This document shows positions 2,732 to 63,520 of a stretch of 64,000 bases of DNA, one piece after another (within the stretch, counting starts at the first letter, position 1; the number at the start of each line of letters is the position of its first letter). Below the pieces are notes generated by a model. That model was given only the letters and a program-made list of their open reading frames with translations, was not told where the DNA came from and made no database searches. Location of the stretch: the NCBI GenBank assembly GCA_024679065.1, contig JAGIQG010000031.1:17360001-17424000 (forward strand), written 5' to 3'. The stretch comes from Sphyrna mokarran (taxonomy: Eukaryota). The position numbers were made by a program, and so were the translations under genes.

Positions 2732-21593
<18,862 letters not shown>

Positions 21594-26394: not shown

Positions 26395-27305
26395 AAGGGA
26401 GAACCAGTATATGTAATATATTTGGATTTCTAAAAAGCATTCAATAGGATACTACACAAAATGAGAGCTCTGGTGTTGGGATTATATTAGCACAGTTAGA
26501 AGATTGCTGAAGTAATAGACAGTTGGGATAAGAGGGGCATTTTCATAATGGCAACTTTTTAACTAATGGAGTGCCCCAGTGTTGGGCCACAATTATTTAT
26601 TTATATATTAATGACTTGGATGAGGGGAGTGAATGCACTATTGCCAAGTTTGCACATGACACAAAGATGGGTGGAAAAGCAAGTGATAAGGATGACACTG
26701 AGTCTACAGAGGACTATAGACGGGTTAGTGAATGGGTAAAAACTTGGCAGATGGAATATAGTATAGGAAAATATTAAGTTATGTACTTTGAAAGAAAGAA
26801 TAAAGGAACTGAAGACTCATTAAATGGAGAAAAATGACAAAATTGCAGGGATTTGGGGATCCTTGTGCATAAATGACAAACTATTATGTAAGTTCAGCAG
26901 GTAATAGGGAAGGCAAATGGAATGTTGAACTTCATTTCAAAAGGAATATAACCATAGTGAAGTCCAGCTAAAATGATACGAAACACTAGTTAGACCACAC
27001 CTGGAATACTGAGAATGATTTTGGTCCCTTATCTAAGGAAAGATATTCTGACATTGGAGGCAGACTTGAGAAGATCCATAAGTTGATCTTGGATATGGAG
27101 TGGTTGAGTAGGTTGGATTGGTGTTCAATGACGCTTAGAAGAATTTTTGAAATGTATAGGATTTTAAGAGGGCTTTACAAATAGATATTGAGAAAGTATT
27201 TCTCCCTTGTGGGACCAGGGAAAGCTGAATTGAGGATTAGTCATGATCTTATTGATTGGCAAAGTAGTCTTAGTGGTTGAAGTGGCCTGAATGTTCCTAT
27301 GTCTT
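26395..27305 (+). mobile_element. Old CR1 LINE fragment
   Basis: YINDLDEGSECTIAKFAHDTK and LVRPHLEY, followed by a CR1 3' tail. Confidence 0.85.
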
Positions 27306-31519: not shown

Positions 31520-33010
31520 ATGTGGGGCATCAGTTGGGTCGAGAACTGGCTCGGGAGGAGAAGACAGAGGGTAGTAGTGGAAGGCTCTTTTTCCGGCTGG
31601 AAGCCTGTCACTAGTGGAGTGCCACAAGGCTCAGTACTAGGTCCTCTTCTATTTGTGGTCTACATAAACGACTTGGAAGTAGGGGTAGGTGGTGAGATCA
31701 GCAAATTTGCTGATGACACCAAGATGCTTGGATTGGCGGGTACAGAGGAGCAGTGTCAGGCAATACAACAGGACATAGACAGGTTGGTAGACTGGGCAGA
31801 TAGATGGCAAATGGAATTTAATCCGGATAAATGCGAGGTGATGCATTTTGGCCGGAAAAATGCAGAAGAGAGTTATAGTATAAAAGGTAAAACTATACGG
31901 AGCATAGAGACGCAGAGAGACTTGGGGGTGCAGGTTCACAAGTCTCTGAAGGTGTCCTCACAGGTGGAGAAGGTGATAAAGAAGGCGTATAGTATGTTAG
32001 CTTTCATAGAAAAGGGTATAGAATACAAGAGTAGGAGTTTGATGTTGCAGTTGTATAGAACTTTGGTTAGGCCTCACTTGGAATACTGCGCCCAGTTCTG
32101 GTCTCCGTACTATCGGAAGGATGTGGAGTCCTTGGAAAGAGTGCAGAGGAGGTTTACCAGGATGCTGCCTGGTATGGAAGGACTGTCTTATGAGGAACGA
32201 TTAGATAGACTGGGGTTGTTTTCCCTTGAAAGACGTCGGCTTAGAGGGGATCTCATAGAGGTGTATAAGATTATAAGGGGTATAGATAGAGTAAATGGAG
32301 GTAAACTTTTTCCACCTTTAGAAATGGATAGGACGAGGGGTCATGGCCATAGGGTGAGGGGGGCTATGTATAGGACGAATATTAGAGGGCAGTTTTTCAC
32401 ACAAAGGGTAGTGGGGGTGTGGAATGCACTGCCGAGTAAGGTGGTGGGAGCAGGCTCGCTGGGGCTGTTTAAGGGTCTCTTGGACAGCCACATGAGCGGT
32501 ATGCAGATAGAGGGATATATTAGGACTGTTTAACTACGGCTTTTTTCCACAGGTAATTCGGTCCATACTTTGAGCATGCATTCGGCAGGTGGTGCGGGTA
32601 CAGCTCTTGGATGTTGATTCATGGGTTGCCTGGTACCTCATGTCGTAAATGAATGCTTTATGTGGACCATCTGAAGGGCACCATGACAGCTCAGAGACTA
32701 TCGATGTGGCTGTGCAGACACTTGGAATTGGGCCGGTGTCTGCGGGAGTTTGCGCGTTCTCCCCGTGGTTGCGTGGGTTTTCTCCGGGCACTCCGGTTTC
32801 CTCCCACAACCCAAAAATTCGCTCTTAGGCTGATTGGGAAACAAATTGTCCCTATGGTGAAAATTTTCCATATTAGGAATAATATATATATTATTATATA
32901 GGAATATTAAAATAGGATAATGTATTTGCTACTATGTAGTATGACGGCGGCGTGGGCTCGTTGGGCCGAAGGGCCTGTTTCCCGTGCTGTGTTGCTTAAA
33001 TTAAAAAAAA
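31520..33010 (+). mobile_element. Young 5'-truncated CR1 LINE with uninterrupted 337-codon ORF2 segment and composite 3' UTR (hairpin, V-SINE domain, CR1 tail)
   Basis: SGVPQGSVLGPLLF..YINDL, KFADDTK and RPHLEYC, with no stops before the TAA at 32533. Tail GGGCCGAAGGGCCTGTTTCCCGTGCTG followed by an A-rich end. Confidence 0.92.
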
Positions 33011-33759
33011 ATTTAAAAAATCTCATTGAGTTAAGATCAGTTGTGTCACTCGGATTATTTAGAGTAGAGCATAGATCAGGCAGTTGGGCTATTTCCCCCA
33101 CTAGTTCATTTATGATCTAACCATCTTTCCTGATCTAAACTTAACATTGTCACCTTCTATTTATCTAAGAAAGCATTTCCGCCTTTAGCAGTTTGACTTT
33201 GTTCTTGTGTGTTTCATTGAACTGTCCTCATTTATCGAGCCAATATTTCCATGTGGGAAGATGTTTTTAAAAAAAAACCTGTGCCATGATCTGAAGAAGG
33301 GCAGATATCTTCTCTGATCAGCTAACACATTGCTTGGGTTCTTGATCCGTTTGTGGAACCAATTTTTTTTTTGGTTCCTATTATACCTGATATTCTCAGG
33401 CAGTCACCCATTCAATTATTAACCAGGACTGAGTCTGTTTAGTTTCTGACATTAGACAAGATCGGGTGTTTTCAGAGAAATGTGGCCATAGGCCTATTTG
33501 TGGAACCTTGCTGTACAGCTATTAGTTGTTTTGAATTGCCAATAAATCAATGTCTTTTTGGTACTGAAGAGACTAAGTGGGTTACTGTTCTTGATCTTGC
33601 AGACTTTCAAGATTTTAATCATCATGAGCCTTCAATTTTAAAATGTAGGCGACTGAATCATTCATTTTTGCAACACGTCGAACGGAGAAACCAAACGAGC
33701 TGTAACGTTCATTACAGTAAAAAATGCAAATTTGAAATGTTGTAAGATTGCAACCAGCA

Positions 33760-34013: not shown

Positions 34014-34211
34014 ATGGATGGGCCCCCCGAGAGGACCGAGATGTACGACCAGGCGCTACTGGGTATCCTGCAGCATGTCGGCAAGATCGAGAACTTTCTG
34101 GAAGTTTTCTTCGGCTTTCTGTACAGGAAGACCGACTTCTTCCGCCTGATGGTGCTGAAGGAGGACAAGCTGGGCTTCCCGCCCGGGGTGGCCGAGAAAC
34201 TAGCCTTGAGG
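34014..34211 (+). CDS. NUDCD3: NUDCD3 exon 1
   Basis: MDGPPERTEMYDQALLGILQHVG...EKLALR; donor |GTGAGT. Confidence 0.95.
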
Positions 34212-37200: not shown

Positions 37201-40200
37201 TTGTCTTCGTAGCACAGTTTAAAAGTAAAAGTACCTCTCTTCCTCTCTGCCTTAAGACCCTCTTTAAAATATACCTTTAATCATCTTTTCCATTAGCTCT
37301 CATTTTTAAAAAAAAGTCCTCAATATTGATCTCAATTCTGATGAAAGGTCATCCATGTTCCCCCCCGTGTGGATTTCCTCTGGGTGCTCCAGTTTCTTCC
37401 CACAGTCCAAACAATGTGCGGGTTAGGTTCTTTTGGCCATGGTAAATTCTTCCTCTGTGTTCCCGAACAGGCGCTGGAGTGTGGTGACTGGGGGATTTTT
37501 ATAGTAACTTCATTGCAGTGTTAATGTAAGTGTGCTTGTGACACTAATAAACTTTAAACCTGAAATGTTAACTCTATTTCTCTCTCCACATATATTGGCA
37601 GAACTACTGAGTATTTGCAGCAATTATTGTTGTCATTTCTCACATCCACAGAATTTTGCTGTTCTAATGTCTTCTTATCAAATTTTATTAGATTGTACAA
37701 CTGTTCCTGCGGATATTTTCCAAAGGTGATGTGCAAATTAAATTTCTTTTTGATGATAAACAGTCCAATCTGGTGAAATGGCACCCAAGGGGCTCTAGAT
37801 TTTGTGACCCTCAACTCATTTTGTTTTGGATTTGGTTTTCACTGCTTCAGGATTTGTTGTGGCTTCTGCAAGGGAAAGAGCAGCTTTCTTGTCAATGGCT
37901 TCAGCCGGTCCAGCTGCAACCAAGAATTCTTCAGCCAATTGACCTTTTTAATTGGACATACATTGTTTCAGGAATAGAAACAAATGTAGCTGAATGATCT
38001 ACTTCAGCTTCTCCAGCCTGCTTTGCCATTGAATGATATCGTGCCTGACCTGTACCTCAGTTCTAATCTCTCATCTTAGCGCTTATCATCTCATGATATC
38101 ATTGCCTTACATAAAGTGTTATGATTACACTGTTGAATCAGTGTTTTCATTTTCATTTTGTTTTCAAGGCTTTCAAGAAGTTTGAACGTTATTCCATTCA
38201 AGATAATGAGAGACGGGTGAAAGAACTGGAGAAGAAACTGAATGACAGGAAAATGGAAGAAGAAAAGCTGTGTGTCCCACTTCCTGGTCAGGAGGTGGAG
38301 ATTGAGTCAGCAGCAGAGGAGCAACCTGAAGCAGAGGCAGCAGTGACAGCTGAACAGAACACTGTGAGCACAAAGAAAGATGAGCAAGCGATTCAGGCAG
38401 ATGTACAGAAACCTGCTACTACTGATAAACAGCTAGAGGGCACTGCTACTGCACCAGTTGTGAAACAGGAGCACTTTAAGCTTTCCAAGTATGTGCACCC
38501 ATTTGTTCTTAATATAAAACAGAGTAAGAATTAATATCCACACGTGTTGTAGTTCTTATGATGTGACTAATCGCTGTATAGTCTTTTTCAGAAAACTTGG
38601 GGGTTGTTGTCTCTGCTTCTCTGCAGTTGGGTTCCACCTCATTGCGCCAAGCAAATGTAGCAGATTCTCTGCTGCATTGCAGATATTACTTGTCATAGGG
38701 TTTGACTCAGTGTTTGACTGCTCCCTTTACAGCATTTATACTTGAGTGAATCTGTGTCCCTGACATGGCAGCTTGAGTGACTGTGAAAGGAATAGGACAA
38801 TAGCTTTTTAAATCAGGGCAACTGGACCTGAATAATGGATAATTAGAATGAATAATAAGGAGTAGCACTGTAATGATGGAAAGGTTATTTTCTGGATTGG
38901 TACCAGGAATGAAAGACTAGAGAATTAATATTTTTCATTTTCAAATACAAAAGGTTAATAAGGGACGTAATAGAGGCGTTGAAAATGACTGACCGGCTCC
39001 TGATAGAGGGTCATATTCTTAGAAGTACAGGGTAAAGCCAGAATACCTGATGAGTACTCCTTTAGGATATTTACAAAGGAAGAGGAATCTGATAAAATGT
39101 TGCAGATAGTAGAGACAATACAAAGTAAAAGTTGAGAAGGATGAAGTATTGTAATGCCTGAATATGTCAGTGGATTAATGACTTGTTCTGGATGGTTTGC
39201 GTTCCACGACATTGGAAGAAGTGCAGGTTGAGATAATGGAATCTTGCTATCTTCCTCAACCCAGGGGACTGGATAGTGCAGTTGTGTCAGGCTAGAGCTA
39301 TTGTCATTCACATCTTTTTCAAATGATCTCTTGTTGCCTTGCCACTCATTTCCAGAATCCTCATTTACAACAAGGGTTCATGAGAGGGAAATGGGAACAT
39401 TTAAATGGAAATGGGAGGAGGAAAGGGAAGGAATTAAAGAATTCTTATTTAAAGGTCAAACAAAAAGGTTTCAGTTATCTTCACAAATATGTAATTAAAT
39501 CCCAACACGATAAAACCGTTCTGCGTGGGTTAGATAATTGTGCTCTGAATGACTTAGAGTTTTGAATATCTGAATATTAGTTCAAAAGTCAAAAAAAAAA
39601 CACTATTAAAACAGAAAAAAACTATTAATATAAAATTAATGTTTTATTGTATCACATCTAACTGTCCATAGTGACTGTTATAAATCATCCAGTTCAGAGC
39701 AATGTTTTCTGAATGTTTATGAAATTTTTGGCCAATAAGATACAAATAATATTTGTTCTTTGTAAATAATAAATTAAGAAGTTTCTTGAAAAAGATTGTA
39801 TTTATTCATGAGCCCCACTCCTGTAAAGAAGTGAGAACATCAGAAATAGGAGCAGGAGAAGGCCATCTAGCCCCTCGAGCCTGCCCACCATTCAATAAGA
39901 TCATGGCTGATCTGAAGTGGATTAGTTTTACTTACCCACATGCTCCCCATAACCCTTAATTCCCTTATCGATCAGAAATCTGTTTACCCGTGACTTAAAT
40001 GTATTCAATGAGGTAGCCTTCACCACTTCAATGGGCAGAGAATTCCAGAGATTCACCACCCGCTGAGAGAAGTTCCTCCTCAACTCTCTTCTCAACTGAT
40101 TCCCCCCTCCCCCTCTTATTTTGAGGCTGTGCCCACTTATTCTGGTGTCCATTCTAAGTAGAAAGAATCTCTTTACCTCTACCCTATCTAATCCCTTCAT

Positions 40201-43200
40201 TATCTTATATGTCTCTATAAGATCACCCCTCAGTCTTCTAAACTCCAACAAGTACAGGCCCAATCTACTCGATCTTTCCTCATAAGCTAAACCCCTCATC
40301 TCCGGCATCAACCCGGTGAACCTTCTCTGTACTCTCTCAATGGCCAATATATCCTTTCGCAAATAAGGGGACCAAAATTGCACACAGTACTCTTGTTGTG
40401 GCCTCACCAATGCCTTGTACAGTTGCAGCAAGACTTCTCTCCTTTTATATTCTATCCCCCTTGTCATAAAGGCCAACATTCCATTCGCCTTCTTGATCAC
40501 CTGCTGTACCTGCAGACTGAGTTTTTGCAATTCATGCAGAAGAACCCTCAGGTCCCTCTGCTCAGTAGTGTATTGTAATTTTTCACCATTTAAATAATAT
40601 TCCATTTTATTATTATTTCTTCCAAAGTGGATAACCTCACATTGGCCAACGTTATACACCATCTGCCAGATCCTTGCACACTCATTCAGCCTATCTAAAT
40701 CTCTCTGCAGACTTTCCACATCCTCCACGAATTCACTTTCCCATCATCTTTGTGTCATCAGCAAACTTTATTTTTCTACACTCAATCCTTTTCTCCAGAT
40801 CATTTATGTATATGGTAAACAGTTGAGGCCCAGCACCGATTCATGCGGCACGCTATGAGTCACCAACTGCCAACCAGAAAAGCACCCATTTATTCCAATT
40901 CTCTTCTTCCTGTTAGATAGTCGATCTTCAATCCATGCTAACACTTTACCCCCAACTCCGTGTACCCTAATCTTCTGCAGTAACCTTTTGCGAGACACCT
41001 TATCAAAAGCCTTCTGGAAATCTCAAAATACCACATCCATCGGTTCCCCTCTGCCAACCACATTAGTCACGTTTTCATAAAAATCCAGTAAATTCGTCAA
41101 ACTCCACTTTCCCTTCGTGAATCCATGCTGCATCTGCTTGATCGAACCGTTCTTTTCCAGGTGTCCTGCTATTTCCTCTTTAATGAGGGATTCCAGCATT
41201 CTCCCAACTATGGATGTTAAGCTAACCAGTCTGTAATTACCCACCTTTTGTCTACTTTCTTTTTTGGAAAACAGCTACACTGTTGTTTAATCAGCCGGCA
41301 CTTCCCCAGAGTCCAGTGAATTTTGATAAATAACTTCTAACACATCTGCTGTTACTTCTGCCATTTCTTTCAGTACCCTGGGATGCATTCCATACGGGCC
41401 CGGGAACTTGTCTACCTTCAGTCCCATTAGTCTACCAAGCGCTACCTCTTTAGTAACAGTAATTGTATTAAGAACCTCATCGACCTCTATCGTTAATATC
41501 CGTTAAGCTATTTGTGCCTCCACCGTGAAGACTGACACAAAAAACTTATTTAAAGTCTCAGTCATTTCCTTGTTTCCCACTATTAAATCCCCCACTCTTG
41601 ACGTCCAAGGAGTCATCATTCACTTGAGCCAGTCTCTTCCTTTTTATATATTTGTAAAAACTATTTTTTTTTATATTTTGAGCTAATTTAGTTTCATAAT
41701 CTATCTTTCCTTTCTTTATTGCTTTCTTAGTTGTTCTTTGTTGTTTTTTTTTAAAGATTTCCCAATCTTCTGATTCCCCACTATTTTTGGCCACTCTGTA
41801 CGCATCGGTTTTTAATTTAATACTCTCCTTTATTTTCTTCGTTATCCATGGCTGGTTATCCCTTTTCTTATAGTCCTTTTTTTTTAATCACCGGATATAT
41901 TTTTGCTGACTACTGAAAAAACCTCCTTAAAAATTCTCCACTGTTCCTCAGCCACCCTACCAACCAGTCCAAGCTCCCAGTCTGCGTTAGCCAATTCCAC
42001 TCTCTTCCTATCATATTCCACTCTGTTCAAGCAGGAAACACTGGTTTGGCACTCTACTTTCTCCATCTGTATCAGATATTCAACCATATTGTGATCACTC
42101 ATCCCAAGAGGATCCCTCACGAGAAGAGCCTTAATTTTACCTGTCTCATTACATAGTACCAATTTTAAGATAAAGTGCTACCTTATAGGTTCTGTAATAT
42201 ACTGTTCAAGGAAACTATCCCAAAAGCATTCTGAGAACTCTTCCTCAAGCTCACCGCATCTGACTTGAGTCAACAAATCAGTGTGCAGGTTAAAATGCCC
42301 TGTGATTATTGTCGTTCCGTTTTTGCACACATCCATTATTTGCTTTATAGCCCTCCCCACCTTAAAGTTATTATTTGGAGGCCTATTGACCACACCAACC
42401 AGTGACTTTCTCCCCTTACTATTCCTTATCTCCACCCACAATGATTCCACGTTTTGGTCCTTAGAGCCTGTATCGTCTCTCACTACTGCCCTGATATTAT
42501 CCTTTATTAACAGAGTTATCCCACCTTTTTCTTCCTGTCTATCCTTCCTAAATATCTGATAACGCTGAATATTCAGTTCCCAGTCCTGGTCACCCTGCAG
42601 CCATGTTTCTGTAATGTCCACCAGACTGATTTGTGGCATTGGTTCATTCACTTTGTTTTGAATGCTTCGTGCGTTCAGGTAAAGTGTCTTTATGCCAGCC
42701 TTTATCTGGACCCGATTTGTAGAAACACTACTAACCTCTCCCGAGCCCTCTACTCCTTTAACTAGTTGAATATCCTCAACCTGTATTCATACCCTCTCCT
42801 TGACCTTTGATTTTGTAATTCCCCATAGCCCTGCGCGCGTGTGCGCACACATGCACCCCTAATATATATTATTAAGTATTGTTAGTATTAAGTTTAAGAT
42901 GTCTATTGCTTTCCTGTGCCCTGTCCAAGCTGGGCACACGACTGGTACATATTGGAGCTCTTGAGAGATGTTAAGGTCCCTGGACTGGGACAAGAATGGG
43001 CTACATGACTTCTTTTTAGCAACACTGCTGAGTATTGCAGTAAGTTAGCAAACTGTTTTGACATTTCTTGGATTTGAATCCTGCCCAACTGATCCGTTGA
43101 AACTGTCTTTAGCTGGATGTCAGGATGATCTGTGAAAGGCGTTTGGGCAGTGCTTACACAGCATTTGGTTGGTGTGTATCCACGTCACAGAATCATTTCC

Positions 43201-49200: not shown

Positions 49201-52200
49201 AATTTTCCAATTATGGATCTGCACTGAGGCTTCCAAGCATAGGGATATGGCAGGAGATTAAATGTAAAACTATTTTGCCTTAGTTGGTAGACGAGTGCCA
49301 ATGCATCAAAAGAGGCACATGGAGCAAAACTTAATCTCGTGTTAAATGCTGTATTGATGTACAGAGTGGTTTCCAAGTAGCCTTTGGAATTTGGAAAAGT
49401 TCGATACAAACCCAACTTAATGATGTGAAGCTCAAGTCTTCCATGAATTGCTCCAGTCTTTCCACTATATTTCCAATCCCATGCACTAACTTGGCCCAAG
49501 AAGATTGGATAACTTAACTTGCACCCACCTCTCTGGTTGTTTGATGAATTTTAATCTTTTGCACACTTGTGATTTATTCTGAGTTTCTGTAGAAAATAAA
49601 TTGCTCATTTTCTGCTTTGATTTGTTTTTGCTCATTATCCTTATTGTAATCAGGAAGCCCAACTGGAAAGGAAAATTCAAATTAAAACTACCACTGTGCT
49701 GTACACTTAGTAGGCCCTGCCTGGACCGCCATTCAGTAGGCCTGGCAGGTTACTCACTGCCTGTTACCAGGGATACTCATACTCAATGAGTGCCATTGGA
49801 AGATCAGCCAGTGGATCTAGTGCAGGTCATCACATTTAAGATACCCTTTCATAGAAAAGGGTATAGAATATAAGAGTAGGAGTTTGATGTTGCAGTTGTA
49901 TACAACTTTGGTTAGGCCTCACTTGGAATACTGCGCCCAGTTCTGGTCTTCGTACTATCGGAAGGATGTGGAGTCCTTGGAGAGAGTGCAGAGGAGGTTT
50001 ACCAGGATGCTGCCTGGTATGGAAGGACTGTCCTATGAGGAACGATTAGATAGACTGGGGTTGTTTGCCCTTGAAAGACGTCGGCTTAGAGGGGATCTCA
50101 TAGAGGTGTATAAGATTATAAGGGGTATAGATAGAGTAAAGGGAGGTAAACTTTTTCCACCTTTAGAAATGGATAGGACGAGAGGTCATGGCCATAGGGT
50201 GAGGGGGGCTATGCATAGGACGAATATTAGAGGGCAGTTTTCACACAAAGGGTAGTGGGGGTGTGGAATGCACTGCCGAGTAAGGTGGTGGGAGCAGGCA
50301 CGCTGGGGCTGTTTAAGGGTCTCTTGGACAGACACATGAGCGGTATGCAGATAGAGGGATATATTAGGACTGTTTAACTACGGCTTTTTTCCACAGGTAA
50401 TTCGGTCCATAATTTGAGCAAGCATTCGGCAGGTGGTGCGGGTACAGCTCTTGGATGTTGATTCATGGGTTGCCTGGTACCTCATGTCGTATATGAGTGC
50501 TTTATGTGGACCATCTGAAGGGCACCATGACAGCTCAGAGACTATCGATGTGGCTGTGCAGACACGTGGAATTGGGCCGGTGTCTGCGGGAGTTTGCGCG
50601 TTCTCCCCGTGGTTGCGTGGGTTTTCTCCGGGCACTCCGGTTTCCTCCCACAACCCAAAAATTCGCTCTTAGGCTGAGTGGGTAACAAATTGTCCCTATG
50701 GTGAAAATTTTCCAAATTAGGATTAATATATATATTATTATATAGGAATATTAAAATAGGATAATGTATTTGGTATTACGGTGGCGCGGGCTCGTTGGGC
50801 CAAAGGGCCTGTTTCCCGTGCTGTGTTGCTTAATAAAAAAAAAAATAATAAAAAAGATAAATTGCAATAAATTTAGTCACAAAAATAAGTTTAAAAATAC
50901 AAGGCCCAATTAAATAATTATGTAGTACAATTTTTCAAAAATCTTGGATTGACAGTAAGTATCTTGAGAAAGACTGGACAGAGAAGTTGAGCGAAGAGAG
51001 TTATTTCAGGAACTGTTTTTTAGGCTGAGACTGACTGACCTTTACCATTGAAACCATACAGTTCAGAAGGAGGCCATCTAGCCCATCAAGTCCGCACTAT
51101 TCCCACAACAATCTCACCAGTCCGTACCATTTCCGCAACAATCCCACCGTGGCTGCACCGCAGTCGCACCGATCCCCTTTCTATGTAACCCTACATACTT
51201 GTACCGCTAACCCCTTTAACCTATGCATCCTAGGACACTAAGGGGCAACTTAGCATGGCCAATGCACCTAACGTGCACATCTTTGGACTGTGACAGGAAA
51301 TCCATGCAGTCATGGGGAGACTGTGAACAGACAGTCACCCGAGGCTGGAAACAAACTTAGCTCTTTGGTGCTGTGAGACAGCAGTGCTAATTGTGACACA
51401 TTGCCTGTCTTTTTTTTAAACACTTGACTCTTAAATGTTGGCTTGTGTCGTGATAAACCTTGTGTATGACGTTTATTTTATTTATTCCATGGAATTTTAT
51501 CACATTCCCTTGCAGACAAAAAGAACAGGAGACCACTACTTGAACAATTTGTTGTATTTGATTTCTTAATATTTTAAGACTGTGGGAAAGAGAAAATATT
51601 GACCCAAGAGAATCCTTGTCAATATCCAACCTAAGTTTAATTACATTTTCTGTAGAGAGCTTCTTAAGTTTGTCAATCCCACTATTCTTGTGAATGTGGA
51701 TTAGAAAAGGGGGCCTGAGGCCAACAATGCCCATTTTGGGGATTTCTCAGCTATGTAAGGTTTTCCGTATTCTAAGCTGTTGTTACTTCTCCCGAAATGG
51801 AGAAGGTGTACACACTTAAAATAAATGATTGAAGTCTGCTTTGAGCTGTATCTTTCTCCTTGTTTTAACAAAGCGTGTGTTTCATATGAATGTTGAATTC
51901 TATGTTTTTTTAATTCAATGAGCAATTAAATACACTCCAAGTATAAGATGCTGTCCAATGTAAAATTTATTTGAAAGCCGTTCTACTTGTTTGTTATGCA
52001 AGTGTATCTTTCCATCTGTATTAGAGGTGTGCTCCTAGGACCTTTTAACTGTTCAGTTATATGAGGGAAATTTAATATTTTAAAATATTTCTTTTGTTAA
52101 CAGATTAACTTAAATAAAAATGGAGAATACTGGTGGAATGCAATTCTGGAAGGTGAAGAGACTATAGACATAGACAAGATAAACAAAGAACGGTCGATGG

Positions 52201-60599: not shown

Positions 60600-61245
60600 A
60601 TAGCTTTTAACTTAAAGCACCTTTAATGTAATTAAACATTGCAGGGCACTTAACCGAAGCATTGTGAAGTGAGGTATGACACTGAGCCACTTAAGAAGGT
60701 ATTAAGTCAGACGACCAAAGGTTTGATGGAAGAGATAGCTTAGAAGTGTCTCAAAGTGAAATTGAGAGCCAGAGGCGTAGGAAAGATATTCCAGAGCTGG
60801 GGCCTGGGCAGTTGAAGATATGGTCACTAATTGTTGAGTGATTAAAATCGGTTTTGCACAAGAGGCACAATTCAAGCAGTGCAGATATCTCTGAGGGCTG
60901 TGATGTGAGAGGAAGTTACAGAAATGGGAAGCAAAACCCTGATGGATGAAAATTTTAAAATCAAAATGCTGCTGCTTGATTGGAAGGAAATGAAGATCAG
61001 CAGGATTCTGGGTAATAGGGGAATGGGACTTGATGCAAGTTATGATATGTTCAGCACAGATTTGGATGATCTCAAGTTTACAGAGGGCAGAATGCCTGAG
61101 AGTACCAGGGTTGCACTGGAGTAGTCAAACCTAGAGGTAATAAGGGCGCAAATGAATATTTCTGCAGCAGTTGACGGGGCAAAGGTATGCAATGCTATGG
61201 AAATGCAAATAGACAAATTTGTGATGGCACAAATATGAGGTAGTA
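60600..61245 (-). mobile_element. Old L2-like LINE 3' remnant
   Basis: Antisense L2-type tail (AAAGCACCTTTAATGTA..AAACA) and GGAGTAGTCAAACCTAGAGGTAA (antisense TSRFDYS motif). Confidence 0.45.
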
Positions 61246-62429
61246 AAGTTTATTTATTTATCAGTCACAAGTAAGGCTTACATGAACATCACAATGAAGT
61301 TACTGTAAAATTCCCCTATTCACCACACTCTAGTCCTGGCACAGTCTGGAAGTCCATCTCTTGCTCAGGGAAATTCTGCAACAGAGAGATGGAGTTGGTG
61401 TTTTACAAAAACAGAAAACGGTAATGAACAATTGAGTTACTTCCCCTCCTGGTTATCATCTCTCTGGAAGTCTGAACCTGAAAATCAGGAGCTGAGATAT
61501 TTCGCATTAATGATTCTCTGGACCAATCAAAATGTCTGTGAAAGCTGCACAAATGGATTCAAGGAACAGCAACAAATTAGTTTTGAATTCCTTGATGTCT
61601 TTTCTGTATTAGTTTTACAACATGCTGAACATGGTTCCAGATGGGCATTCAGAACATTTAACACTTGACAAACCAGTTTGCCTGTTTATCCTATATTTCT
61701 ATGTAGTGATGGTGAACAAAATGGAATTACTGAAATATTAACACACATTAGAGACGCATACAAGTTAGACCAGCAAAACCCCTTTCCTTCACTTTCTAAG
61801 TTGGGAGATTGGTATCGATGTAAGCAGGATAGTGATTAACCCACCTGCATAAGCCAATTCTTTGCTCAGTTGTTAGCAAATTTGTTGTAAATTTTTCGGA
61901 AAGAGCAAATTTGAAATGAATATTTTGAACTGAATGAATTGCATACGGACCGTGAAAGGGAATTGATTTCTTGGATAAGACGTTTATTAATTTGACCCAA
62001 ATGTTGAAACTGATTGTAGCAGCTAACGCTAACTAAAGTCAGTAACAATGGATTGTTGTTTTTCTGTTTCATGTTTGTATTAATTTTATGGAATATGTCC
62101 CCAAAGGAATTTTACAATAATTGCTTGCCTCAGTTTTGTCAACACAAGCACAAGAGCAGTTGCCCAAAACAACTGATTGCCAACAGTTTTGCTATCTTTA
62201 TTTCTGATATATCAATAGTAACCAATTATGTAGCAATTTAAACTTAGCACGAGTGAAAAGTGCAACTCTGTTCTTGATTGTCTTAACCACTTGTTATCAT
62301 AAATATCCTTTTGGGCTTTTTTATATTTGGCAAAACTGGGACTGTTTCTAGAAATGTCTTGACTCTGTTCAGAGTACTGTAAGCATGCTATAAGTGAAAT
62401 GTTGCCATTTTGACCTGCTTATTTCAGAT

Positions 62430-63520
62430 CAGATGTCGAAATGCCAGTGTTGGATTGGAGTAAACACAGTAAGAAGTCTCTCAACACTAGGTTAAAGTCC
62501 AATATGTTTATTTGGTAGCAAAATCCACTAGCTTTCGGAGCGCTGCCCCTTCGTCAGGTGAGTGAGAGTTCTGTTCACAAACAGGGCATATAAAGACACA
62601 AACTCAATTTACAAAATGATAATTGGAATGCGAGTCTTTACGGGTAATCAGGTCTTTAATGTGCAAACAATGTGAGTGGAGAGAACGTTAAGCATAGGTT
62701 AAAAAATTGTGTATTGTCTCCAGACAGACAGTTAGTGAGATTTTGCAAGCCCTGGCAAGTCGTTTATGGAGGTTACAGATAGTATGACATGAACCCAAGA
62801 TCCCAGTTGAGGCCATCCTTGTGCGTGCGGAACTTAGCTACCAGTCTGTGCTCAGCGACTCCGCATTGTCGTGTATCGTGAAGGCCGTGTTGGAGAACGC
62901 TTATCTGTAGATCACATGCTGAATGCTCGTGACCGTTGAAGTATTCCCCCACAGGAAGAGAACCCTCTTGCCTGGTGATTATTGAGCAGTGTTCATTCAT
63001 CCATCTATGCGTCTGCATAGTCTCCCCAATGTACCATGCCTCGGGATATCCTTTCCTGTAGCGTATCAGGTAGATGACGGCCAAGTTGTAAGAGTACGTA
63101 CCGTGTATCTGGTGAATGGTGTTGTCGTGTGAGATGATAGCATCTGTGTCAATGCTCCAGCACATCTTACAGAGGTTGCTGTGGCAGGGTTGTGTGGTGT
63201 TGTGGTCACTGTTCTCCTGAAAGGTTTGGGTAATTTGCTGTGGATAATGGTGTGTTTGAGGTTGTCAAATTGTTTGAAAGCATGAATTGGGGATGTGGGG
63301 ATGGCCTTGGCGAGATGTTTGTCTTCATCAATGACATGTTGAAGGCTCCAGAGAAGATGTCATAGCTTTTCCGCTCTGGGGAAATACTGGACGACGGAGG
63401 TTACTTTGTCCATCGTGTTTATTTTCTGAGAAGGTTAGTATGGTTTTTCATTGTGGCGCATTGGAACTGTTGATGGATTAGTCGAATGCCATATCCTGCT
63501 CTTAAGAGGGCATCTTTCAG
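62430..63520 (-). mobile_element. Penelope-like element 3' half (GIY-YIG endonuclease and pseudo-LTR)
   Basis: ORF 62773..63165(-): VIYLIRYRKGYPEAWYIGETMQ..RWMNEH...PVGEYF...E.RLVAKFRTHKDGLN. Confidence 0.9.
62526..62560 (-). ncRNA. Minimal type I hammerhead ribozyme in Penelope pseudo-LTR
   Basis: Minus strand reads CAC-CUGACGA-A-GGGGC-AGC-GCUCC-GAAA-GCUA-GUG: CUGANGA core, stem II, GAAA, palindromic AGCU stem III, CUA cleavage triplet and CAC/GUG stem I. Confidence 0.75.

What the first reader, a model, noticed from the sequence alone, without database searches (positions are those of the whole stretch)
32534..33010. CR1 LINE family carrying a V-SINE central domain inside its own 3' UTR
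Seen: after the ORF2 stop come ~200 nt of unrecognised sequence, then TGTCTGCGGGAGTTTGCGCGTTCTCCCCGTGGTTGCGTGGGTTTTCTCCGGGCACTCCGGTTTCCTCCCACAACCCAAA (32737-32817). This matches the conserved central domain of the HE1/V-SINE copies elsewhere in the window but has no tRNA head. An AT-rich spacer and the normal CR1 tail follow. The whole arrangement recurs near-identically at 49846-50856 with a different 5' truncation point, so it retrotransposes as a unit and is not a one-off nested insertion. Established: V-SINEs normally share only the 3' tail with their partner LINE, and the origin and function of the V domain are unresolved. Inference: either an autonomous LINE captured and kept a SINE body, or it is a LINE-type donor of that body.
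Basis: partly seen in the sequence, partly recalled or inferred. Interest (0 to 1): 0.75.

Follow-up and report, generated by a model that had tools for sequence, protein, structure and literature searches.

The report
CR1 retrotransposon that captured a SINE
A jumping gene (CR1 LINE) of a cartilaginous fish carries, in its 3' untranslated end, a captured copy of its usual parasite (a V-SINE) that has lost its own promoter but appears to have kept its RNA fold, which offers a direct way to test what the ancient V domain does.

Summary
Two 5'-truncated CR1 copies (about 31529-33020 and 49846-50855) are 96% identical over 1021 nt with unrelated flanks. Both run ORF2 stop, linker, V domain, AT-rich spacer, CR1 tail. 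Four other CR1 3' ends in the window have short UTRs without V.

'No tRNA head' is wrong. Models built from SINEs alone place a SINE head at 32678-32732, gapless for 53 nt, with 14-16 positions over the B box deleted. That register is best both by identity (26/53) and by base pairs (21/24; 3 of 20000 shuffles). Against a teleost V-SINE, 6 of 6 two-sided stem changes keep pairing. So a whole V-SINE was captured, its Pol III promoter was lost, and its predicted four-way junction and Vhc hairpin were kept. The 'LINE donated V' idea is not supported.

Most likely the fold works in cis on the LINE RNA (inferred, untested). The main rival is that the changes arose in an unsampled donor SINE. Only two copies were seen; Repbase, Dfam and the genome could not be checked. 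My literature searches found no V domain reported in a LINE.

The parts
31529..32533 (+). Copy 1: 3' part of CR1 ORF2 (RT C-terminal half onward), open to the stop; 5' truncation near 31529-31535
   Evidence: groups with chondrichthyan CR1 proteins, 99/99
32534..32677 (+). Linker of unknown origin; holds a long irregular hairpin (about 32550-32673)
   Evidence: z -4.46, 0 of 200 shuffles, bounds chosen after a first fold; no other window match than copy 2; no Rfam match
32678..32732 (+). Remodelled tRNA-derived V-SINE head: P1 5' strand, P2 hairpin over the former A box, P3 5' strand; B box deleted just after 32732
   Evidence: covariance models from SINEs alone; register tests; two-sided changes
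32735..32817 (+). V domain: P3 3' strand, P4 hairpin (32744-32763), P1 3' strand (32764-32772), Vhc hairpin (32773-32807)
   Evidence: (84.5% over 71 nt to teleost-type V-SINE L004)
32818..32856 (+). Post-V SINE body remnant
   Evidence: 25 of 41 positions match the window-SINE majority and 28 of 41 the teleost-type copies over 32818-32858
32859..32942 (+). AT-rich spacer (18% GC); begins with a 72%-identical 18-nt tandem copy of the post-V end; a 10-nt indel separates the two copies
   Evidence: no significant match to SINE post-V bodies (37-442 of 500 shuffles)
32943..33020 (+). CR1 3' tail stem-loop (about 32943-32993) and A-rich end
49846..50855 (+). Copy 2, same anatomy (head at 50522, V from 50579), shorter 5' truncation, one frameshift in ORF2

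Best explanation
A young chondrichthyan CR1 lineage acquired an entire V-SINE (tRNA-derived head, V domain, some post-V body) in sense orientation between ORF2 and its 3' tail, and retrotransposes with it. SHOWN: linkage in two independent-looking insertions; head homology in a fixed register; B-box deletion; pair-keeping substitutions in a predicted four-way junction plus an intact Vhc hairpin. INFERRED, capture: most likely through the shared tail. Either reverse transcriptase copied a full SINE RNA and switched to LINE RNA, or a LINE read through into an adjacent SINE, or a SINE inserted into a master copy and the two tails recombined to one. These routes cannot be told apart here. INFERRED, function: once inside a Pol II transcript the Pol III boxes were dispensable and were lost, while the fold was kept because it helps the LINE RNA in cis, probably as a compact domain that stabilises the RNA or binds a host or LINE protein during RNP assembly. 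Rough weights: whole-SINE capture 0.9; selection on the fold inside the LINE 0.6-0.65; the specific RNP/stability role 0.4.
For: Two SINE-only covariance models put the head in the same register from 32678: R1 with my 30 pairs, 32.0 bits; R3 with the 7 automatic RNAalifold pairs, 27.6 bits; best other non-training hit in the window 12.4 and 12.6 bits. Both drop 14-16 model positions over the B box. Fixed-register test: 32678 is best by pairs (21 of 24; 3 of 20000 shuffles), by identity (26 of 53; 137 of 20000) and jointly (0 of 20000); 0 of 124162 other window positions reach 21 pairs. With pairs taken only from the L002 fold: 20 of 25, 33 of 10000, using the 1-nt gap that the sequence-only model also places. 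Two-sided changes keeping the pair: 6 of 6 against L002 (4 of 100000 simulations), 7 of 7 against the teleost-type set, 9 of 10 against all 9 SINEs. Vhc hairpin 9 of 9 pairs kept in the LINE. Whole UTR folds at z -3.62, 0 of 100 shuffles. The sister CR1 fragment at 21.1-21.4 kb has a short V-less UTR.
Against: The pair list for R1 and one search was drawn after I had seen the LINE fold. Among the 9 SINEs alone, covariation does not beat shuffles (63 of 500) and RNAalifold recovers only P3; only L002, and partly L001 and the 22.9 kb copy, fold this way singly. Without the 1-nt P3 shift the L002-only test is not significant (16 of 25; 5758 of 10000). A loosely defined junction forms in 49 of 2000 shuffles. 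P2 alone is not significant (17076 of 20000). The SINE sample is small, decayed and partly teleost. The head is 26/53 and 22/53 identical to the teleost and window consensus while these share only 30/53, so a divergent donor is possible. One search uses an alignment fitted to the structure. Covariance-model hits cover positions 1-112 even for junk, and bits of R1/R3 and R2 are not directly comparable. Only two copies; no full-length element; no expression or functional data.
Confidence: 0.62

Rival explanations
1. Neutral hitchhiking. A V-SINE was captured, but from an unsampled family whose head had already diverged with compensatory changes. In the LINE it is a passenger, copied because it lies between ORF2 and the tail, and the B-box loss is ordinary decay.
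For: Teleost and window head consensus differ from each other almost as much (30/53) as from the LINE. V-SINEs exchange modules freely; a second V-SINE tail type lies in this window. Differences between the two copies are too few to show constraint (2 substitutions in 124 nt of V+post-V, 11 in 533 nt of ORF2).
Against: The A-box positions are altered too, which an active SINE should resist (A-box consensus recalled; no match at 32678-32732). The deletion removes the B-box arm while P3 still closes. The V core is better kept than the post-V body against teleost-type copies (37/45 against 28/41).
Confidence: 0.27
2. One-off chimera or local duplication: a single LINE/SINE chimeric insertion later copied once or a few times, not a real family.
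For: Only two copies seen, 18 kb apart. One-off Alu/L1 chimeras are common in human (113 reported; bioRxiv 10.1101/2025.02.02.635956, section 23). No close ORF2 relative in the rows listed by two protein searches (best near-full-length 69%; one unnamed 218-aa fragment at 80%).
Against: Homology ends at the element borders, 5' ends differ, each copy has its own A-rich end, and copy 2 has a candidate target duplication. ORF2 is open in copy 1 and the copies differ by about 2.4%, while the SINE part is heavily remodelled, which needs long residence in a replicating lineage.
Confidence: 0.07
3. LINE-type donor: this CR1 3' UTR is the ancestral source of the V domain.
For: LINE parts have supplied SINE bodies in other cases (RTE and Vingi 5' UTRs; PMC5786205). 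The LINE's V is more complete than that of 4 of the 5 window SINE copies that span it.
Against: The segment includes a tRNA-type head remnant with a deleted B box. Related CR1s lack it. V-SINEs occur in cnidarians, molluscs and arthropods (PMC4824008; PMC4758252), far older than this CR1 branch.
Confidence: 0.03

Closest known systems
HE1 V-SINE / HER1 CR1 LINE pair of sharks and rays (Ogiwara 1999, 2002; not read, known here from the table in PMC3747384)
   Same: V domain, head ancestry, CR1-type tail stem-loop, same host group
   Different: In that pair the listed relation is SINE and partner LINE; here head and V sit inside the LINE's own 3' UTR without a B box. I did not compare with the HE1 or HER1 consensus, so the HE1 label for window SINEs is inferred.
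Vhc subdomain hairpin (PMC4758252, section 11)
   Same: Same 35-40 nt hairpin with an internal loop, kept here with 9 of 9 pairs
   Different: Described in SINEs only, and said not to be preserved in fish V-SINEs (data not shown there); the head-to-V junction proposed here is not mentioned in that section.
Alu/L1 and U6/L1 chimeric retrotranscripts (bioRxiv 10.1101/2025.02.02.635956, abstract and sections 23, 34)
   Same: Full-length, sense-oriented SINE joined to a LINE during retrotransposition; plausible capture route
   Different: Single insertions sought 5' of L1; here the SINE lies 3' of ORF2, is remodelled and is propagated.
LINEs holding SINE-like pieces: Ingi-3_AC (RTE/Ceph-like segment in 5' UTR) and RTE-1_DAn (tRNA-like sequence) (PMC5786205); BovB with SINE or CR1 pieces at its ends (recalled from Walsh 2013, not read)
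   Same: A LINE family carrying sequence of possible SINE or small-RNA origin
   Different: Other clades, 5' UTR or unstated position, no V domain, no evidence given of a kept fold.

Membership tests
CR1 LINE (canonical vertebrate CR1) | ORF2 reverse transcriptase domain | tested here: met
   RVT_1, E 8e-13
CR1 LINE (canonical vertebrate CR1) | ORF2 groups with vertebrate CR1s | tested here: met
   99/99 clade with Stegostoma, Chiloscyllium and Hypanus proteins and a window fragment; 15 named proteins of the 120 listed were used; no Zenon or L2 outgroup in the tree
CR1 LINE (canonical vertebrate CR1) | 3' tail stem-loop shared with other CR1s | tested here: met
   Same fold and loop class as the 21.4 kb and 9.8 kb CR1 ends
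CR1 LINE (canonical vertebrate CR1) | APE endonuclease and esterase-type ORF1 (PMC13343379) | not testable with these tools
   Both copies are 5'-truncated inside ORF2
CR1 LINE (canonical vertebrate CR1) | Ends in a short repeat, not poly(A) (PMC13343379 gives poly-A as unique to Zenon in the group) | tested here: inconclusive
   Both copies end in an interrupted A-rich run
V-SINE superfamily | About 80-bp V domain | tested here: met
V-SINE superfamily | tRNA-derived head with Pol III A and B boxes | tested here: not met
   Head homologous but B box deleted and A box altered
V-SINE superfamily | Short non-coding unit that inserts on its own | tested here: not met
   Both copies begin inside ORF2; no free copy of the remodelled unit in the window
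V-SINE superfamily | LINE-derived 3' tail | tested here: met
   whether the tail came with the SINE or is the LINE's own is unresolved
One-off chimeric retrotranscript (U6/L1, Alu/L1 type) | Single insertion with the small RNA 5' of the LINE part | tested here: not met
   Two insertions; SINE part 3' of ORF2
Annotated Repbase/Dfam or published shark CR1 family | Consensus already contains this 3' UTR | not testable with these tools
   No Repbase or Dfam here; the consensus cells of PMC13343379 Table S2 are cut at 400 characters, so 3' ends could not be searched

The most novel reading that the evidence does not exclude
An autonomous CR1 has domesticated its own parasite: it swallowed a whole V-SINE, removed the Pol III promoter and kept, by compensatory change, a four-way junction joining the former tRNA head to the V domain, because that RNA structure boosts retrotransposition. 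This would mean that the V domain, conserved across eumetazoans, is conserved as part of an RNA machine built with the head, acting on the mobile RNA itself and independent of Pol III.
Probability: 0.4. Interest if true: 0.85.

Novelty: new variant of a known kind. Interest (0 to 1): 0.7.

Why it matters
Why SINE central domains stay conserved for hundreds of millions of years is open. [quoted passage not shown] A V domain inside a LINE separates it from Pol III transcription and from parasitism. The substitutions in this copy also yield a specific structural model (head pairs with V) that could be read from ordinary V-SINEs and probed. Because LINEs work in cis in standard reporter assays, the function of V becomes directly testable.

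Tried and rejected
Sequence-only searches for the head were negative: local alignment sum 296 of 1000 shuffles and no nhmmer head hit; ungapped 28-nt test 1904 of 5000; sequence-only model matched positions 71-110 only; ARAGORN 0; Rfam only two chance hits, E 6-8, over 32400-33100. GTDB scan with a V motif gave 4 loci, all teleost-type V-SINEs on contaminant-looking contigs, none with ORF2 nearby; they served as outgroup SINEs. Plasmid and phage collections: no match. Two protein searches found no close named ORF2; each scored only 8000 candidates and listed 120. Synonymous/non-synonymous differences between copies were 4 and 7 plus one indel (synonymous site fraction 0.22), uninformative. The AT-rich spacer showed no significant match to 4 SINE post-V bodies. 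No second tail motif was found inside the UTR at up to 2 mismatches, so an old LINE tail upstream of the SINE is not evident. The long linker hairpin is unexplained; 1 of 60 random window segments folded as well or better. Ten literature searches returned no report of a V domain in a LINE; Ogiwara 2002 was not held and Ogiwara 1999 was not sought. Unchecked: the host genome, Repbase, Dfam, SINEBase, the metagenome and viral contig collections, file 1 of the PMC4824008 supplements, bioRxiv supplements.

Full report
Setting. The window is vertebrate DNA with a Pol mu/TdT-family exon near 15.7 kb and a NudC-domain first exon at 34017; I read these as POLM and NUDCD3 from recalled synteny. The repeats point to a cartilaginous fish. 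Copy 1 of the element lies about 1 kb upstream of the NudC exon; copy 2 lies downstream of it, probably in an intron (not checked).

The observation. Window self-comparison gives one young repeat pair: 32001-33020 with 49846-50855, 96.1% over 1021 nt. Similarity stops at both borders; copy 2 has a candidate 6-bp target duplication, copy 1 none that is clean. Copy 1 begins near 31529-31535 inside ORF2 and is open to the stop at 32531-32533; copy 2 has one frameshift. A profile of 7 window SINE fragments hits both UTRs (E 9e-9, 5e-9) from 32735 to about 32853. The V part is 84.5% identical over 71 nt to a teleost-type V-SINE found on a GTDB contig. The 4 other CR1 3' ends measured have 59-85 nt from the ORF2 end to the tail loop, against 443-453 nt here. 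In a tree of 20 rows the ORF2 falls in a 99/99 clade with Stegostoma, Chiloscyllium and Hypanus proteins and the window fragment at 21.1 kb, which fills only 22% of columns and has a short V-less UTR. The block is therefore a derived gain.

The head is there. Sequence-only local tests did not find it. Folding showed a four-way junction over 32677-32772 followed by the Vhc hairpin at 32773-32807, with high pair probabilities in both copies. The teleost-type SINE L002 folds with the same topology, using its tRNA-derived head: 5' end paired with the middle of V (P1), an A-box hairpin (P2), a stem closing on the start of V (P3) and a V hairpin (P4). I aligned 9 SINE sequences without the LINE and built three models. 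The model with my 30 pairs and the one with 7 automatic pairs both align the LINE from 32678, gapless for 53-55 nt, then skip 14-16 positions over the B box (32.0 and 27.6 bits; best other non-training hits 12.4 and 12.6). A direct test over all registers in 32640-32734 picks 32678 by pairs (21 of 24; 3 of 20000 shuffles), by identity (26 of 53; 137 of 20000) and jointly (0 of 20000); none of 124162 other window positions reaches 21 pairs. Relative to L002, 23 of 26 pairs are kept despite 17 changed sides, and all 6 two-sided changes keep pairing (147 and 4 of 100000 simulations). Adding the two LINE copies lifts the covariation score from 0.163 (63 of 500 shuffles) to 0.307 (0 of 500; alignment fitted to the model, and the two copies are one event).

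Limits of that result. I chose the pairs after seeing the LINE fold. With pairs from the L002 fold alone the test gives 33 of 10000 with a 1-nt shift in P3 and 5758 of 10000 without it; the sequence-only model places a 1-nt gap at that spot. The SINEs alone do not establish the junction: RNAalifold recovers only P3. P2 alone is not significant. A loose junction forms in 49 of 2000 shuffles and 39 of 1500 genomic segments, a strict one in 0 and 1. The SINE sample is small and decayed, so I cannot date the compensatory changes relative to capture.

How it most likely works. CR1-group LINEs of the stringent type need a 3' stem-loop bound by ORF2 (shown for zebrafish L2 elements; PMC4176376, passages), and V-SINEs of sharks use a CR1 partner (PMC3747384, table passage). 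A shared tail makes it easy to join a full SINE to a LINE by template switch, read-through or insertion plus recombination; the complete SINE 5' end and the single tail fit all three. The tail loop here matches the CR1 ends at 21.4 kb and 9.8 kb better than the window SINE tails; I recall ray V-SINEs with this tail class, unverified. In a Pol II transcript the boxes were free to go, and the B box went by deletion while P3 still closes. I infer that the fold is kept because it helps the LINE RNA in cis, through stability or protein binding (overall 0.62). The main rival is a passenger from an already divergent donor (0.27); a one-off chimera (0.07) and a LINE donor of V (0.03) fit poorly.

What is known. 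[quoted passage not shown] Ogiwara 2002 was not available. Ten searches found no V domain in a LINE. The family may still sit unremarked in Repbase, Dfam or published consensus sets, which I could not read.

Verdict. A real CR1 element with a captured, promoter-less V-SINE in its 3' UTR; it is a CR1 on the features testable here and not a V-SINE. New variant of a known kind; interest 0.7, limited by two copies and a structure model that needs a larger SINE sample.

Noticed in passing
window 22.9 kb (+), 51.3 kb (-), 56.8 kb (-), 53.8 kb (+): Four of the 5 window SINE copies that span the V domain lack 18-20 nt of it: three lose the 5' half of the Vhc hairpin between two internal direct repeats, one a neighbouring stretch. 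This may be a V-deleted subfamily or a deletion hotspot.
   Followed up: partly
window 37355-37560 (+) and 61244-61352 (-): V-SINE fragment with an intact Vhc and a different 3' tail from the CR1 type, shared with the 61.3 kb fragment; a second V-SINE/partner pair in this genome.
   Followed up: no
window 32550-32673 (and 50394-50517): Long irregular hairpin directly after the ORF2 stop, z -4.46, no homologue found. Unexplained.
   Followed up: partly
window 32541-32558: A pyrimidine run ending in CAG followed by a GT donor-like site just after the ORF2 stop, in both copies; possible cryptic splice signals, by recalled consensus.
   Followed up: no
L001-L004: Four GTDB genomes (Nocardioides malaquae Y6, a Brevinema MAG, a Cellulosilyticaceae MAG; three assemblies in all) hold contigs with teleost-type V-SINEs, likely fish DNA contamination.
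   Followed up: partly
protein hits P0002, P0007, P0174: CR1 ORF2 proteins 65-69% identical to this element are filed under Klebsiella, Proteus and Carnobacterium on 1.6-3 kb contigs, likely contamination.
   Followed up: no
window 62773-63264 (-): 163-codon open stretch that resembles a Penelope-type endonuclease end (recalled likeness); no Pfam hit.
   Followed up: partly
window 17529-18772 (+), 39834-41116 (-), 26532-27074 (+), 21075-21420 (+): Older CR1 copies of at least three other lineages; the first two are 79% identical.
   Followed up: partly
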